DNA of 64,000 nucleotides, taken from assembly GCF_006345805.1 (NCBI RefSeq), contig NC_043008.1, forward strand, positions 48,608,001 to 48,672,000. The letters are read 5' to 3'. Positions 24,001 to 60,000 of the stretch are shown here, in pieces. Each line of letters starts with the position of its first letter. The first letter of the stretch is position 1. Source of the stretch: Octopus sinensis (taxonomy: Eukaryota). Position numbers: made by a program.

Positions 24001-27000
24001 AATAAAATGGATATTCTTCCAAACCACACGGTTCTGGGTTCAGTTCCACTGCATGGCACCTTGGGCAAGGGAATCTTCCAAGTCCTCTCCCCACCCAACA
24101 CTTTTTTTTCCTATTCGTTTACTACATGTTGTTTTGCACCTATTACACTATTTTGTTTTTTAATTTTTCTGATCGAGTGTAAACGTTGAGCTTTCGAATC
24201 CTCTAAGTTCGATCGCGTGAATTTTCCAAGTCCTCTCCCCACCCCACCCCGTTCGCTAGCGCACATTTTCTTTTTTTTTTTATCATAATCGTTTAGTACC
24301 CATTATTTTATACCTAATGCACTTTCTCTTTTCTTTTTTGTTTTTGGTGTCTGGGTGTCGAGTCGGGTTACTGGATCCGCACCCCACCCACCCTCCGTCA
24401 CAAAAATTGAAAAAAAAAATGTCTATTAGGTGTAAAATAATGCGTAGTAAACGAATATGAAGAAAAACAATTGCGCCGACGAACGGGGAAGTGGTGAGAG
24501 GCCTCGGAACGTTCCCGATGGGAATTTTCCGAGGCCCCTGCCCCCCTCCCGTTCCCCAGTGCGCATTTTTTTTTTAATATTCGTTTCCTACATGTTGTTT
24601 TACACCTATTACACTATTTTTTTTCTTTTTTTTTTTTGCTCGGGTCAAACATTGGAGGTAAACCCGCCCCCCTCTATTTTCATTATTTATTTGCAGATTT
24701 TCTATTAGTTCTATTTTCATTTCTCTATATTTTTTTAGTGTTTACTTTCGTAACAAGTAAAATCAAAATATTAATAAAAACCAACACTGGAATCGGTTTT
24801 GGTCGACGAAACCATTGAGCAACGTCGCAGTTAAACGACTGAAACTGGTGGGAAAAAAACAGACTGGATTATTTAAAATTCATTAATTAATTTTTTTTTT
24901 TATGTTCCCCAAATGAATAATTAACGCTGAATATATTATGTTAATAATTAAAGGTTTCTGCTTCCGTTAAAAGAGTTCTCGTTCCGTTTCGACTGGAGGA
25001 GGTCGTCGTTGTTTACGTTTTTGAATTAAGGAAATCAATTAATTTTAGATTCATTAAAACCTAATTAAGGAGAGATGCCTGTCTATTTATGGCTGTAATA
25101 ATGATGATAATTATTATTGAGATGCGTTGGTGTAAGGAAGGTTGAGAGAGATGGTCATGGAGGGAGATTCCAGTTAATTGCAGTGTCTAAGTCCACCAAA
25201 ACCCGTTTCCTTCTTGTTCCTGCGTAAATCTTGTTGTTTAGCAAAAGAGAGTTTGGTCAATGTTGGAACTGTGTCGAATAGAAACAACAGACATGGCATT
25301 GGGCCTTAATTGAGATAATTAATGGACCTTAATTGTGACGGGTCTGACCCTTTCCGTGGGGCACCGCCCCCTCCTCCTCTTCTGATATTATTCGAATTGG
25401 TTCCACATTGTTTATGTAAGTACCATTCCATCTTTTATTTCTGTTGGATCCATCTCTTTACATTATGTTAGATTGATGTCTGTGGAAATGGACGGACAAA
25501 CATCTCCGCTTTTACCTCGATATTCTCACATCTTTGTCGTTGTTTAGTCAAAAGTTTGGGTGTCGGTTAATAGACTTAAGGTACCCTTAATTCTGGTGAC
25601 CAGATGTTGTCCTTCGATCTTCTTTGGGGTATTTATAATTGTAGATATAACAGATGTCTTATTCCTATTTGGTTGAGTATCTCGTGTTTGGGTGGAGTGA
25701 GAGAGAGAATTAAATTTAATGAGAAAATTTTGGTAAAGATTTTGGAGAATCGGTCGTCTGTGTGGAATATAAAGTTGTACATAATAAAGGAATTATACAT
25801 CTAATCAGTTAGAGTTAGGGTTATGGGTGGGAGAAAAGGGTTTCTGTTATCTTCAGAAATGTAAACAAAGCCACTTGCGGTACCTATACCGAAGGATCGC
25901 CTTAATTTTATATTTTCAAAACATTACTACACACACAATGTATGTTTGTATGTAGAGGCTGAGTTAATCGTTGAGGTGATATTATTTCGACAGAAAATGC
26001 AATGATTTCGTGTTTCTATTCTTCATTGTTTTAGTCTTGGTATAGAATCGCCGATCAACCATTCATTGCTATCGTTGCTTCATTCAGACACGATTCGAAT
26101 CTATTTCGTTTGGAAATGATATCGGAATTAAAATTCAGAAGAACCACAGTTCTTCACAATTTATTGAAGTTTGTAAATGAGGGAGAAGGGAGGCAATTAG
26201 TAAGTGGATGCGCACTCCCTTAATTAAACATCACACAATGTGTCGGTATTATTGCGAGGGATGGCGGGACTGAGCTGCTGGAACAAGAGCCAAGTATTCG
26301 CTTTCAGACTTCATCCAATTCTTCAATGATGCAGGACCTCCACAAAGACAAATATTTCCTTGTCACCAGCCCTTGGCATTGTCATCATTTTCAGTAAATT
26401 TAGCATTACACCTGCCGAGATTGGTGGTTTTACAATCCGGGTCTGTGTGACCCCTAGGGGTCTACATATACAAAATAGTAAATTGGGAACCCACAGTAGT
26501 ATTTTAAGGGTTCATGAAAGCAAAAAAAAAGTTATGTTAGATGAATTCATTGCAAGAAACAGCCTGGTTTCCTTCTTTGATTGTTTTACGTAGTTGAGCC
26601 CCTGTGTTCCAGCCCCTGAAAGATCTTCTCTCAGAGAATGCTTTTACAAACTTAAACAAGTGAATGTTCAAAACTGCAAAAGAGGAATTTTAAAAGAAAT
26701 ATCAATAAAACCAGTTTTTGAACAATGAATGGCTTGGTGGTGGGTGAGTGGGAGTAAAATAATAATCAACAGGGTCCATAGATAAAAAATGGTTGAGAAC
26801 CACTTCCTTAGATTGCCATTAAACTTGAGAAATATCTTTTACTGAAGCTGTAACATGATAAGATGATGTAGTTTGAGGTTCTATGATTCAAAAGAAAGTA
26901 AACTTTTACACTCATCTCCAAACTCTTGAATGTCAGACTCCCAGATAAGCTGTCACTGCCTCACGAAGAAGGAAAAAAGCAAGAAATTGAGTGGTGGTTT

Positions 27001-57000: not shown

Positions 57001-60000
57001 TGTAGGGATTTTAACTTGGAACACAAAGAGTCGGAACAAATACGACAAGGCAACCAAACTTACAAACTAATAGTGGTTTTATCTCTAATTTAATATAATA
57101 TATATGTATATATATATATATAGTTATTTATATGTTGATATTGTCCCTGTTTCGCAAGACAGGGCATTCTTTCGATATAGAATCCCTGTGATAGTTGTCA
57201 AAAGACATTCGATTCAGAAATATATTCAACAAAAGAAACATTCAACAATTTTGTCTTTTCCTTGATTTTGCCGTGTCTCTATAACATAGAATTGATTGAT
57301 ACTTATTGATTTGTCACAACTAAATGTTTAAATTGATCAAATAAAGAATTACTTTTTATGACATTAAAACAGGAAACAGCTCTAAGTGTTAAAAGAAAGC
57401 TTCCCGTTATATCTACAATTATAAATACCTTGAAGAAGATGGAAAGACAAAATCTGGTCACCAGAATTAAGGGTACCTTAACACTATTAACCCTAACCCA
57501 AACTTTTGACTAAACAATACAAAACAACGACAAAGATATGAGAATATCGAGGTAAAAGCGATGTTTGTCCGTCCATTTCCACAGACATCAATCTAACATA
57601 ATGTAAAGAGATGGATCCAACAGAAATAAAAGGATAGAATGGTACTTACATAAACAATGTGGAACCATTTCGAATAATATCAGAAGAGGAGGAGGGGGCG
57701 GTGCCCCACGGAAAGGGTCCATTAATTATCTCAATTAAGGCCCAATGCCATGTCTGTTGTTTCTATTCGACACAGTTCCAACATTGACCAAACTCTCTTT
57801 TGCTAAACAACAAGATTTACGCAGGAACAAGAAGGAAACGGGTTTTGGTGGACTTAGACACTGCAATTAACTGGAATCTCCCTCCATGACCACCTCTCAA
57901 CCTTCCTTACATCAACGTATCTCAATATTAATTATCATTATTACAGCCACACACACACACACACATATATATATATATATATATATGTATATATATGTTT
58001 AGGTTTTAATTTAATCTCACTTCTTATCTTAATTCGTCGACGACGTAAATCGAAACGGAACTGGAACTCTTTTACCGAAACAACTGCTGCCAAATTAATC
58101 GATAGTTTTGATATTTTAAAAACTGGTACAATTTAAGTTGTGTTTCTGTCAATTAAATTTTGTATCGCAATCGGTAAACTATAACGACGTTCATTTATTT
58201 CTTTACTACCCACAAGGGGCTACACACAGAGGGGACAAACAAGGACAGACAAACGGATTAAGTCGATTACATCCTTTCGGGGTATATGGCAGGTTTGGTA
58301 GCCTTCAACTAACACTATCTCCTCCAAGACCCTGCGGCGCAAGTTGACCAAAATTGACAGTATGATAGAAGAAGGCTTGCTCTTCCTTCCGTAGAATATA
58401 AAATTCAAATCGGACCATGTTAACAACAAAAATTATTTACACCAAAAAGGCACTTTTTTTCTATGAAAATCCCTATTCTTTTACGATTTTTTTAGTGCTG
58501 TGTCGCCATTTTTCGGTGTATTTCAACCAGAAAAATGTTCACTTAAAGAGAATAACAAGATACTACATAATGAAAATTTTTTACTTTTCAAAAATTCCAA
58601 TTCTAAAGGGTCGAAAAGAAAACAAACCCGAGCAACGCCGGGCGATACTGCTAGTATTATATATATATATATATATATATATATATATATATATATACAC
58701 GCACAATAATACCCCGTTTAACGTAACGTCCTTTTCGGCTTTCATCATCATCATCGTTTAACGTACGCTTTCCATGCTGGCATGGGTTGGACGGTTTGAC
58801 TGAGGACTGGCGAACCAGATGGCTGCACCAGGCTCCAATCTGATCAGGCAGAGTTTCTACAGCTGGATACCCTTCCTAATGCCAACCACTCTGGGAGTGT
58901 AGTGGGTGCTTTCAGAGTGGTTGGCGTTAGGAAGGGCATCCAGCCACTCTGAAAGCACCCACCACACTCTCAACTCATAAATTTTCCAGATTTTTTTTCA
59001 TAAGAAGCTTCCTACCATCATTTCCAAGGCCATGATGAAATAAAAATTGAGAATATCCTCGTCAAAACAGAGAAAATCCAATTTATAACCATCTTTTATA
59101 GTCTATTAATATTCTATTGAAATGATGCCATGTTCCAAAATCTCAGGTTTTATTTAGTTTCATACTTATTACAAATGTGCCAAAAAACTCATGTCCCTGT
59201 GACTGGTACTTCTGGATTTAGCATGGTCTGAAAACACTGCAAAATTGACCTTTGCTACAAAATAGGCTTTACATAAATATCTTAAAAATTGCCACAAGAT
59301 CGTTTTCTTTCCAAGAACCTGCAAAAAAAAAAAAAAAAGGCAACTGCTGTACCATGGCCAGTATTAATTTGTGTAATTTGAAGATGATTATCACCTCAGT
59401 TTTACAGATATAACATTGCAAATATGGTTAATTATTCATTTAGGGTAATTAGGCAAGATTTTAACCAATTTGCTGACCCTTCAAATTGTCATATTTCCTA
59501 AAACATTCATCAAAATTCCACAAATGAGCCATCAAAATGTTTCTTTTTGGACGCTCTCCACGAAAGAGAACAGCAGAAATTAGAATTTTACATATTTTTA
59601 AAAATTCATAGTGATACCTGTTAAAAGATATCTGATCTGTTCCACATAGAGACGGGGTCTACTTAGGGCAGACCCTATCTCTCCTGTTCATTTTCCATGA
59701 TCATTAACCACTCATGACTTCCTGGTTGCTTTACAGTTTGGACACTGAGGCCTTCGGAAGCCACCTGAATTCCTTTGGCACCATGATGCTTCATTGCATT
59801 ATAGGTTACCATTTGTCAGATTTCAGACTCTGCTCAGAAACTGGGATGCACCCTGTTACTTGTTATGATTCGTGGGTGCCAGCTCAGGCTGTTTGGCCAC
59901 CTTGCTTGATTTTCTGGGTTAGACCCTGTTCTCTTAATTGAGGGTCCAGCTAGATTGATGGCTCATGTTGGTTGTCCACATGCTATGTGGTTATGGCAGA

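What the first reader, a model, noticed from the sequence alone, without database searches (positions are those of the whole stretch)
24925..58075. ZNF paralogs with homogenised 5' modules but divergent finger arrays
Seen: each of the three ZNF genes has the same ~550-650 bp upstream block (A vs B: ~5 mismatches in ~540 bp by eye) and the same ~290 bp acceptor/UTR block. The intervening introns (~2.7, ~0.6, ~1.8 kb) look unrelated and the coding regions differ in finger number and sequence. This is the reverse of the usual pattern after duplication. Inference: a common promoter/leader cassette is kept uniform by gene conversion or selection while the DNA-binding arrays diversify, giving a constant-leader/variable-array system. 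Identical leaders could also permit alternative splicing of leader C onto exon B.
Basis: partly seen in the sequence, partly recalled or inferred. Interest (0 to 1): 0.8.

Follow-up and report, generated by a model that had tools for sequence, protein, structure and literature searches.

The report
ZNF paralogs sharing homogenised 5' leaders
Three neighbouring zinc-finger genes, probably from an octopus-like cephalopod, carry almost identical non-coding front ends while everything else about them is old and different, a pattern best explained by patchy gene conversion, a known process seen here in a new place.

Summary
Three C2H2 zinc-finger loci (A on +, B and C on -) each carry the same upstream block and the same acceptor/leader block. 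Substitution-only divergence in the blocks is 1.6-4.1%. Introns, 5' flanks and 3' flanks share nothing significant. The finger arrays (6, 11 and 10 fingers) differ at synonymous sites by dS >= 0.34-0.45 in nearly all best pairs, median pS about 0.6.

Variable sites form a mosaic. Identity ends at a different, abrupt point for each pair (Fisher 4e-15 and 2e-16). Layers of about 1%, 4% and 12-14% divergence sit side by side, and a 224-bp core has no substitution (P = 0.0013). Weak old homology survives in the last finger and 3' UTR.

The best reading is old whole-gene paralogs whose 5' regions are repeatedly overwritten by short-tract interlocus gene conversion. Promoter and leader function is inferred only. 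B and C lack A's start codon, and B has a frameshift.

A LINE ORF points to an octopod. Mouse V1R promoters are the closest analogue. Genome-wide distribution could not be tested. This is a new member of a known kind, of moderate interest.

The parts
24929..25651 (+). Locus A upstream block (putative promoter plus non-coding exon 1 and the start of the intron)
   Evidence: BLAST and nhmmer. A/B 5 mismatches in 499 bp at 25060-25558 and 18 in 128 at 24929-25059. CpG o/e 0.82 against 0.34 for the window. Stops in all six frames.
25173..25396 (+). Core with no substitution in any of the three copies. The same stretch starts at 51003 in B and 57871 in C, where it carries a 21-bp deletion. Holds a TAATT cluster (25304-25324) and a GC box (25358-25371).
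   Evidence: Site list. P = 0.0013 for a substitution-free run of 224 or more, given 13 substitutions in 446 columns. Motif coordinates.
25416..25421 (+). Candidate splice donor GTAAGT, identical in all three loci (B 50760-50755, C 57649-57644)
   Evidence: Consensus only, no transcript evidence. Homology continues 140-235 bp beyond it.
25652..28280 (+). Locus A variable intervening sequence (putative intron)
   Evidence: No significant match to the B or C equivalents. No TE domain at E <= 0.01 in the 14 A-intron ORFs scanned (of 27 ORFs >= 45 aa in this intron).
28281..28600 (+). Locus A acceptor/leader block: polypyrimidine tract, AG at 28299-28300, putative exon 2 5' UTR from 28301, with two short upstream ORFs
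   Evidence: RNA fold z = +1.96, meaning less structured than its shuffles.
28601..29260 (+). Locus A coding region: ATG at 28601, 219 aa, a decayed-finger N-terminus and 6 C2H2 fingers
   Evidence: N-terminal residues 12-33 align to a finger of an Octopus vulgaris protein.
50558..51247 (-). Locus B upstream block. High identity covers 50618-51247; 50558-50617 is only about 65% like A and C.
   Evidence: B-only differences cluster there (15 of 46 columns against 2 of 446, Fisher 4e-15). Local alignment of this tail to A gives z 2.9, with 8 of 500 shuffles as good.
50042..50617 (-). Locus B variable intervening sequence, containing a (GT)n/(GA)n microsatellite
49560..50041 (-). Locus B acceptor/leader block (AG ends at 50020, exon from 50019) plus a B/C-only extension at 49730-49560 that holds a decayed finger. 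It has ATA where A has ATG.
   Evidence: The extension hits real fingers by nhmmer (E 1e-5).
48343..49559 (-). Locus B finger array: open frame 49559-48540, then a 1-bp loss (AAA to AA) at the junction of a 100%-identical two-finger duplication, then frame 48648-48343
   Evidence: (B8 = B9)
57406..58080 (-). Locus C upstream block. High identity covers 57406-57949. Beyond a (TA)n/(CA)n microsatellite it continues at about 63% identity.
   Evidence: nhmmer reaches 58080; 50 mismatches in 134 aligned
55644..57405 (-). Locus C variable intervening sequence
   Evidence: The ORF 55923-55528 looked LINE-like from memory, but this was not confirmed.
55180..55643 (-). Locus C acceptor/leader block (AG ends at 55623, exon from 55622; 25-bp deletion) plus the extension shared with B
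54217..55155 (-). Locus C finger array: 312-codon open frame, 10 fingers, first in-frame ATG at 55107. The terminal finger matches A's terminal finger.
   Evidence: (A6/C10 identity 0.827, dS 0.45)

Best explanation
These are three old whole-gene paralogs in a tandem/inverted C2H2 zinc-finger cluster, probably from an octopod cephalopod. Two short 5' non-coding regions have been repeatedly overwritten by short-tract, non-allelic (interlocus) gene conversion. The first is an upstream block that most likely holds the promoter and a non-coding first exon. The second starts at the 3' splice site and forms the 5' UTR of the finger exon. The intron, the flanks and the finger arrays have escaped conversion and carry the old divergence.

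In each locus the converted tract stops where the open reading frame starts (A's ATG, and the start of the open array frame in B and C). That fits either selection against homogenising the DNA-binding arrays or a block caused by loss of homology.

Shown: the discordance in divergence, the mosaic of tracts, and the sharp pair-specific ends. Inferred: gene conversion as the process, the promoter/leader role of the blocks, and any benefit such as shared regulation of the paralogs.
For: (1) The blocks differ by 0.016-0.041 substitutions per site. Fingers differ far more. Over 66 A/B, 60 A/C and 110 B/C pairs, median pS is 0.58-0.65. Minimum dS is 0.40 for A/C and 0.34 for B/C. The terminal-finger pair A6/C10 has dS 0.45.

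(2) Introns and flanks are unalignable, as expected for neutral DNA of the arrays' age.

(3) Old paralogy is visible in the shared order: block, intron, block, decayed finger, array. A and C share the last finger, which ends in the same residues directly before the stop. 3' UTR remnants align for A/B (local score z 6.1, 0 of 500 shuffles as good) and more weakly for A/C (z 2.5, 12 of 500).

(4) The variable sites form a mosaic. In the upstream block there are runs of C-only, B-only and A-only differences. B switches from 2 unique differences in 446 columns to 15 in 46, while A and C stay alike. In the acceptor block A switches from 5 in 245 columns to 24 in 52, while B and C stay identical (Fisher 4e-15 and 2e-16).

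(5) Identity layers sit side by side. A/B has 5/499 next to 18/128. A/C has 12/428 next to 11/93 next to 50/134.

(6) A 224-bp core has no substitution in any copy (P = 0.0013).

(7) High identity runs past the conserved GTAAGT into what would be intron. It is also kept in B, which has a frameshift and no leader ATG. Both points argue for homogenisation at the DNA level rather than selection on each transcript.

(8) Partial homogenisation of tandem families is documented. In V1R genes there are promoter and acceptor-proximal homology peaks, and gene conversion was proposed (PMC1955453, abstract and passages). In zebrafish NLR genes conversion affects only part of each gene (bioRxiv 10.1101/022061, passages).
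Against: There are only three copies in one window, so no formal GENECONV-type test with many paralogs was possible and no orthologues from another species could be compared.

Two separate converted islands with similar outer limits in all three loci need either several events or selection shaping where tracts survive.

Some 'tract ends' could be plain rearrangement breakpoints. The old-layer alignment of B's block tail is weak (z 2.9 against A; z 1.7 against C, with 49 of 500 shuffles as good). The post-ATG region of A shows no significant similarity to B (z 0.5, with 192 of 500 shuffles as good). The B/C 3' UTRs show none either (z -1.0).

dS values rest on 25-codon fingers of uncertain orthology, and one pair (A3/B5) has dS 0.14.

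GC content gives no clear sign of biased conversion: upstream block 0.37-0.38 against introns 0.29-0.36.

No transcript evidence supports the gene models.
Confidence: 0.6

Rival explanations
1. The blocks are (parts of) a mobile or transduced cassette, for example a TE-derived promoter/exon unit, that landed recently in front of three old, unrelated ZNF arrays. Their similarity would then reflect the age of insertion, not conversion.
For: The outer boundaries are sharp and the flanks unrelated. The window is rich in TEs: a LINE at 17166-18863 and several SINE-like families. Divergence among copies is low and roughly star-like in the acceptor block, with 6, 8 and 5 unique sites. Genome-wide copy number could not be examined.
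Against: Two different blocks always occur in the same order and orientation, 0.6-2.7 kb apart, and next to a ZNF array in 3 of 3 cases. There is no stand-alone copy in 64 kb. The ends differ between pairs instead of being fixed termini. No terminal inverted repeat or target-site duplication is shared by the three copies. The blocks have no coding capacity. Homology continues at a lower level beyond the high-identity ends. An insertion model also needs three different fillers between the blocks.
Confidence: 0.12
2. The blocks are held constant by purifying selection alone, as ultraconserved regulatory and UTR sequence, with no sequence exchange between paralogs.
For: The limits of the blocks coincide with functional landmarks: the 3' splice site in 3 of 3 loci, A's ATG, and the start of the open array frame in B and C. 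There is a substitution-free core with a GC box and a TAATT cluster. CpG o/e is raised to 0.57-0.88.
Against: Near-complete identity over about 500 contiguous bases (5/499) is far more than binding sites require; the V1R authors make the same argument (PMC1955453, passages). Pair-specific abrupt switches, where B alone diverges while A and C stay alike and vice versa, are not expected from a shared constraint. B keeps the blocks despite a frameshift and no leader ATG. The leader shows no stable RNA structure.
Confidence: 0.1
3. The three loci are young segmental duplicates (about 3% divergence) in which introns, arrays and 3' flanks were later replaced by rearrangement or by ectopic exchange with other members of a very large ZNF family.
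For: Arrays do turn over: B carries a 100%-identical two-finger duplication. One cross-locus finger pair, A3/B5, is unusually close (dS 0.14). Cephalopod genomes hold very many C2H2 genes: PMC9068888 gives 2785 for the squid D. pealeii and implies about 1,800 for O. bimaculoides (165 genes = 9% of the total; passages).
Against: It needs independent, complete replacement of at least two introns, two arrays and two 3' flanks while leaving both blocks intact. The remnants in the last finger and 3' UTR are old (about 70-83% identity), not young.
Confidence: 0.1
4. Assembly or polishing artefact: cross-mapping reads made moderately similar paralogous segments look nearly identical.
For: A 224-bp stretch is identical in all three copies. 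B's frameshift is a 1-bp change in a short A run, which is the kind of error long reads make.
Against: The copies differ by many private substitutions and indels of 21, 25, 12 and 3 bp. The loci are not collapsed and their unique flanks are intact. Polishing cannot create homology where there is none.
Confidence: 0.04

Closest known systems
Mouse V1R vomeronasal receptor gene blocks (Stewart & Lane 2007, PMC1955453; abstract and passages read)
   Same: There are two islands of paralog homology: an upstream peak of about 500-1000 bp holding the transcription start, and a non-coding stretch immediately upstream of the coding exon that includes the acceptor. Low-homology sequence lies between them. 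The authors propose gene conversion because the islands are long and unbroken, and because some paralogous promoters are less diverged than orthologous ones.
   Different: In V1R the coding exon is itself a conserved peak, with about 0.63 of the block's substitution level. Here the coding arrays are far more diverged than the leader. V1R start sites were mapped by 5' RACE; here nothing is mapped. The gene family and the biology (one receptor per neuron) are different.
Zebrafish NLR-B30.2 family on chromosome 4 (bioRxiv 10.1101/022061; passages read)
   Same: It is a large tandem family in which homogenising gene conversion affects only part of each gene while another part stays diverse. The inference there also rests on contrasting dS between parts.
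   Different: The homogenised part there is a coding domain (NACHT) and the pattern covers hundreds of genes. Here it is non-coding 5' sequence in three genes.
KRAB-ZNF and FiNZ-ZNF clusters (Wells et al., PMC10547256 / bioRxiv 10.1101/2022.11.29.518450; passages read)
   Same: These are tandemly duplicated poly-zinc-finger genes with a constant N-terminal part and fast-evolving finger arrays. Internal rearrangement and gene conversion of the arrays are noted there.
   Different: There the constant part is a protein domain (KRAB, FiNZ). Here Pfam finds only finger families in all three loci, and A's 56-residue N-terminus has no homologue and is a decayed finger. The constant part here is non-coding.
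Cephalopod C2H2 expansions (PMC9068888, PMC13218726, PMC7656900; passages read)
   Same: The lineage is probably the same, judging by the LINE match to Argonauta hians at 63%. The gene type is the same: effector-less multi-finger genes in clusters within repeat-rich DNA.
   Different: The passages I saw describe copy number, chromosomal clustering and neural expression. None mentions shared 5' leaders or partial homogenisation. Supplements were closed, and Albertin et al. 2015 was not held.

Membership tests
Tandem C2H2 (Krueppel-type) zinc-finger genes | Several consecutive C-X2-C-X12-H-X3-H fingers joined by TGEKP-like linkers | tested here: met
   Pfam zf-C2H2 and zf-H2C2_2, E 1e-28 to 1e-77 in all three loci. 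6, 11 and 10 fingers by pattern.
KRAB/SCAN/BTB/FiNZ-type ZNF genes | An N-terminal effector domain upstream of the array | tested here: not met
   Only finger families in Pfam. A residues 1-56 have no homologue and align to a finger. No conserved coding exon in the introns or flanks.
Concerted evolution by interlocus gene conversion | Paralogous segment much less diverged than neighbouring paralogous sequence and than synonymous sites | tested here: met
   0.016-0.041 against dS >= 0.34-0.45 in best pairs (one exception, 0.14). Introns are unalignable.
Concerted evolution by interlocus gene conversion | Mosaic of tracts with pair-specific, abrupt ends | tested here: met
   Fisher 4e-15 and 2e-16.
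Concerted evolution by interlocus gene conversion | Paralogs within a species more alike than orthologues between species | not testable with these tools
   No eukaryotic genome collection was on hand.
Concerted evolution by interlocus gene conversion | GC enrichment of converted tracts (biased conversion) | tested here: inconclusive
   GC: upstream block 0.37-0.38, core 0.44, acceptor block 0.29-0.32, introns 0.29-0.36.
Transposable element | Defined termini (TIR or LTR) with target-site duplications | tested here: not met
   No terminal repeat shared by the three copies; only low-complexity pairs. The ends differ between pairs.
Transposable element | Dispersed copies independent of the host gene | tested here: inconclusive
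   0 stand-alone copies in the 64-kb window; 3 of 3 are beside ZNF arrays. Genome-wide distribution is not testable here.
Promoter plus non-coding first exon and 5' UTR leader | Mapped transcription start and splice junctions | not testable with these tools
   No RNA data. Consensus signals only: polypyrimidine-AG at the start of the block in 3 of 3, GTAAGT conserved in 3 of 3, CpG o/e 0.57-0.88 against 0.34.
V1R-like homogenised promoters | Upstream homology peak plus acceptor-proximal peak separated by low-homology sequence | tested here: met
   compared with PMC1955453 passages.
V1R-like homogenised promoters | Mutually exclusive or otherwise coordinated expression of family members | not testable with these tools
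   No expression data.

The most novel reading that the evidence does not exclude
The two blocks are a family-wide regulatory cassette, maintained by gene conversion, that places many effector-less cephalopod zinc-finger arrays under one common promoter and leader. That would give either co-expression or a stochastic one-of-many choice, as proposed for V1R genes. It would be a non-coding counterpart of the constant KRAB or FiNZ part of vertebrate ZNF families, with read-through and leader swapping between tandem neighbours as an extra source of isoforms.
Probability: 0.12. Interest if true: 0.7.

Novelty: new member of a known kind. Interest (0 to 1): 0.42.

Why it matters
Cephalopods have one of the largest C2H2 zinc-finger expansions known, and how these genes are regulated is largely unknown. 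A shared leader that is actively homogenised in front of divergent arrays would point to common regulation. It would also give a handle (the block sequences) for finding family members that annotation misses, and a clean natural example of gene conversion stopping at the edge of a diversifying coding region. If the blocks prove to be confined to this one small cluster, it is an ordinary case of partial concerted evolution.

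Tried and rejected
- Rfam at gathering thresholds over the whole window gave 0 matches.
- The RNA fold of A's leader is less stable than 196 of 200 shuffles, so there is no structured RNA.
- The blocks have stops in all six frames, and tblastx finds no hidden conserved exon in the introns or flanks.
- I scanned 22 of the 46 intron ORFs of 45 aa or more (the longer ones) against Pfam. None matched at E <= 0.01.
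- The C-intron ORF 55923-55528 looked like a LINE ORF2 tail from a recalled motif. blastp against 8 LINE proteins gave best E 0.38 and the protein atlas was uninformative, so that label is dropped.
- The idea that the acceptor block is a LINE 3' end is dropped with it.
- A search with A's full protein returned only generic C2H2 hits of 55% identity or less, with no self-hit. A search with A residues 1-56 found nothing.
- Helitron, LTR and TIR readings of the blocks: I saw no consistent termini (and by eye).
- A spliced-leader RNA gene was considered and rejected on size, with no Rfam hit.
- The bacterial promoter/terminator scanner was not used because it does not apply.
- Genome contigs (bacteria and archaea only) was not searched because it cannot hold this genome.

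Full report
WHAT IS THERE

The window is AT-rich (about 37-40% GC), has no N and is repeat-laden eukaryotic DNA. It holds exactly three C2H2 zinc-finger intervals (tblastn):
- Locus A on the + strand: ORF 28580-29260, ATG at 28601.
- Locus B on the - strand: 49559-48343.
- Locus C on the - strand: 55155-54217.

A and B are convergent. Their 3' ends are 19 kb apart, and that gap contains a 9-kb satellite of 34-bp units. C lies 3 kb upstream of B on the same strand.

A LINE reverse-transcriptase ORF at 17595-18734 has its best named relative in Argonauta hians (63% identity; an unnamed NCBI record reaches 70%). One of the better ZNF hits is from Octopus vulgaris (55%). I therefore take the window to be from an octopod cephalopod. 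It is not human.

Each locus has an upstream block and an acceptor block:
- Upstream block: A 24929-25651, B 51247-50558, C 58080-57406.
- Acceptor block: A 28281-28600, B 50041-49730, C 55643-55350.

nhmmer profiles find each block three times and nowhere else in the 64 kb. Counting substitutions only, the copies differ by 7/430 to 23/627 in the upstream block and by 11/416 to 12/293 in the acceptor block.

The sequences between the blocks (2.6, 0.6 and 1.8 kb) share nothing significant, and neither do the 5' flanks or the 3' flanks. blastn with word size 7 gives best E 0.008-0.034 between the introns. At E <= 1e-4, neither the introns nor the flanks match another locus, apart from dispersed repeats and the tail of the A/C upstream block. 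tblastx gives best E 0.063-0.11 for the introns and 0.001-0.02 for the 5' flanks, all short matches.

The arrays have 6, 11 (plus one chimeric) and 10 fingers.

THE DISCORDANCE IS REAL

I compared all fingers across loci over 25 codons each. The table gives the results.

| Pair | Finger pairs | Median pS | Minimum dS | Best nucleotide identity |
|---|---|---|---|---|
| A/B | 66 | 0.58 | 0.14 (the single pair A3/B5) | 0.867 |
| A/C | 60 | 0.65 | 0.40 | 0.827 |
| B/C | 110 | 0.59 | 0.34 | 0.80 |

The positionally equivalent terminal fingers of A and C have identity 0.827 and dS 0.45. The non-coding 5' blocks are therefore roughly ten times less diverged than synonymous sites of the coding region.

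These dS values rest on short units of uncertain orthology. I used the best pairs so that the comparison is conservative.

OLD PARALOGY

The three loci share one order: block, variable stretch, block, a decayed finger, then the array.
- The B/C-only extension at 49730-49585 hits real fingers by nhmmer (E 1e-5).
- Residues 12-33 of A's N-terminus align with a finger of the Octopus protein.
- A and C end in the same last finger, with the same residues directly before the stop.
- The first 100 nt or so after the stop still align weakly. For A/B the local score has z 6.1, with 0 of 500 shuffles as good. For A/C it is z 2.5, with 12 of 500. B/C shows none.

So these are old whole-gene duplicates. 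They are not arrays that acquired a cassette by chance.

THE MOSAIC

Listing every variable site in order shows runs rather than scatter.

In the upstream block:
- C alone differs at the 5' end.
- A 224-bp core (A 25173-25396) has no substitution in any copy. P = 0.0013 for such a run given 13 substitutions in 446 columns.
- At B 50617 the pattern switches. B goes from 2 unique differences in 446 columns to 15 in 46 (Fisher 4e-15), while A and C remain alike for another 90 bp.

In the acceptor block:
- B alone differs in the first 31 columns.
- From about 28533, A alone differs.
- After A's ATG at 28601, A is unrelated, while B and C remain 96-100% identical until about 49560/55180 (Fisher 2e-16).

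Identity layers lie side by side:
- A/B: 5/499 next to 18/128.
- A/C: 12/428, then 11/93, then 50/134.

Abrupt ends that differ from pair to pair, together with layers of different age, are what repeated short-tract gene conversion leaves. They are not what a transposon with fixed termini or a uniform selective constraint would give.

WHAT THE BLOCKS PROBABLY ARE

They have stops in all six frames, no Rfam match and no stable RNA fold (z = +1.96).

The acceptor block starts with a long polypyrimidine tract and an AG in all three loci. The putative exons start at A 28301, B 50019 and C 55622. The block then runs 300 nt, with two short upstream ORFs, to A's ATG, which has A at -3 and G at +4.

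The upstream block holds a GTAAGT that is identical in the three loci (A 25416). A second aligned GT lies near A 25620. CpG o/e is 0.57-0.88, against 0.34 for the window. The core contains a GC box and a cluster of TAATT motifs.

I therefore read the upstream block as promoter plus non-coding exon 1, and the acceptor block as the 3' splice site plus 5' UTR. This is inference from consensus signals only. No transcript data were available.

I did not build, print or search a joined exon 1 + exon 2 model. Each exon was handled on its own. What a joined reading would add therefore stays open, for example the fate of the upstream ATG that B and C have, and A lacks, just before the GTAAGT.

STATE OF THE GENES

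A looks intact: 219 aa and 6 fingers.

B and C have ATA where A has its ATG. B also has a 1-bp loss (AAA to AA) at the junction of a 100%-identical two-finger duplication, which splits its array into two frames. This may be real or a homopolymer error. C's array is open for 312 codons, with a first in-frame ATG at 55107.

B and C may therefore be recently disabled, or they may start translation elsewhere. Both keep near-identical blocks all the same. High identity also runs past the GTAAGT into what would be intron. Both facts favour a DNA-level process over selection on each transcript.

RIVALS

- Mobile cassette. It is disfavoured by the constant pairing, order and orientation (3 of 3), the absence of stand-alone copies, the absence of shared termini and the pair-specific ends. 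It cannot be excluded without a genome-wide search.
- Pure constraint. It does not explain 5/499 identity or the pair-specific switches.
- Young duplicates with everything else replaced. This needs many independent replacements and conflicts with the old 3' remnants.
- Polishing artefact. It could exaggerate identity but cannot create the pattern.

COMPARISON WITH WHAT IS KNOWN

The closest analogue I found is the mouse V1R family. It has an upstream homology peak of 500-1000 bp containing the start site, a second peak just upstream of the coding exon that includes the acceptor, and low-homology sequence between them. Gene conversion was proposed there because the peaks are long and unbroken (PMC1955453; abstract and passages). 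Unlike here, the V1R coding exon is itself conserved.

Partial homogenisation of tandem families is also described for zebrafish NLR genes (bioRxiv 10.1101/022061; passages).

KRAB and FiNZ zinc-finger families have a constant part too, but there it is a protein domain (passages). Here none exists.

Papers on cephalopod C2H2 expansions describe numbers, clustering and neural expression. In the passages I read they say nothing about shared leaders. My searches found no description of homogenised 5' leaders in zinc-finger clusters. This is a limited search of open-access text, with supplements closed and Albertin et al. 2015 not held. From memory only, that paper reports tandem repeats enriched beside octopus C2H2 genes, which may relate to the satellite seen here.

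WHAT STAYED UNCHECKED

- Genome-wide distribution of the blocks.
- Orthologous loci in other species.
- Transcripts.
- Raw reads.

VERDICT

The finding is a real and clean example of partial concerted evolution. Non-coding 5' modules have been homogenised by gene conversion in front of old, divergent finger arrays, in a probable octopod ZNF cluster. It is a new member of a known kind. Interest is moderate, and would be higher if the cassette proves to be family-wide.

Noticed in passing
window 36651-45673: A 9-kb satellite of 34-bp units (about 267 copies, 94% matches, strong C-over-G skew) fills much of the gap between the 3' ends of the convergent loci A and B. From memory only, tandem repeats are reported to be enriched beside octopus C2H2 genes, and beta-satellites beside human ZNF clusters.
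   Followed up: partly
window 48560-48860 (- strand): Locus B carries a 100%-identical duplication of two fingers with a spacing of 167 instead of 168 bp. A single A is lost at the junction, which shifts the frame. It is either very recent unequal exchange within the array or a homopolymer error in the assembly.
   Followed up: yes
window 21620-23942: Two tandem copies of a unit of about 1,147 bp at 99.4% identity, about 1 kb upstream of locus A's block. Content not examined.
   Followed up: no
window 16488-16837 and 58282-58635: A 350-bp repeat at 93% identity in inverted orientation. One copy lies about 200 bp upstream of locus C's upstream block. The other lies between a (CAC)n and a (TCTA)n microsatellite, next to the LINE.
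   Followed up: no
window 17166-18863 (+) and 10967-11197 (+): LINE remnants with RT and zf-RVT domains: 61-69% identity to the two closest proteins (the named one from Argonauta hians), 41-52% to five unnamed ones. This is the basis for the octopod assignment.
   Followed up: yes
window 15639-16484, 16922-17232: Very long microsatellites: (CAC)n of 846 bp and (TCTA)n of 311 bp. They create spurious long ORFs at 15499-17241.
   Followed up: partly
window 7498-7659, 14707-14946, 35146-35348, 58742-58912, 61321-61509 and others: A SINE-like family of about 150-240 bp at 81-92% identity in both orientations. A second family lies at 813-998, 7705-7860, 14176-14324, 30706-30857, 36296-36414 and 47122-47271.
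   Followed up: no
window 25304-25345 (A); B 50872-50831; C 57740-57720: Inside the substitution-free core, a near-direct repeat of a CCTTAATTG motif gives three TAATT sites within about 40 nt. C has lost the second repeat unit by a 21-bp deletion. Homeodomain-type sites are a guess from memory, not tested.
   Followed up: no
window 24402-24632 and 53418-53797: Two imperfect palindromes (76% and 84% self-complementary), one upstream of locus A's block and one downstream of locus C. They look MITE-like but were not examined.
   Followed up: no
window 55528-55923 (- strand): A 131-codon open frame runs from the C intron through the T-rich tract into the acceptor block. It resembled a LINE ORF2 tail from memory, but neither Pfam, the atlas nor blastp supports that.
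   Followed up: yes
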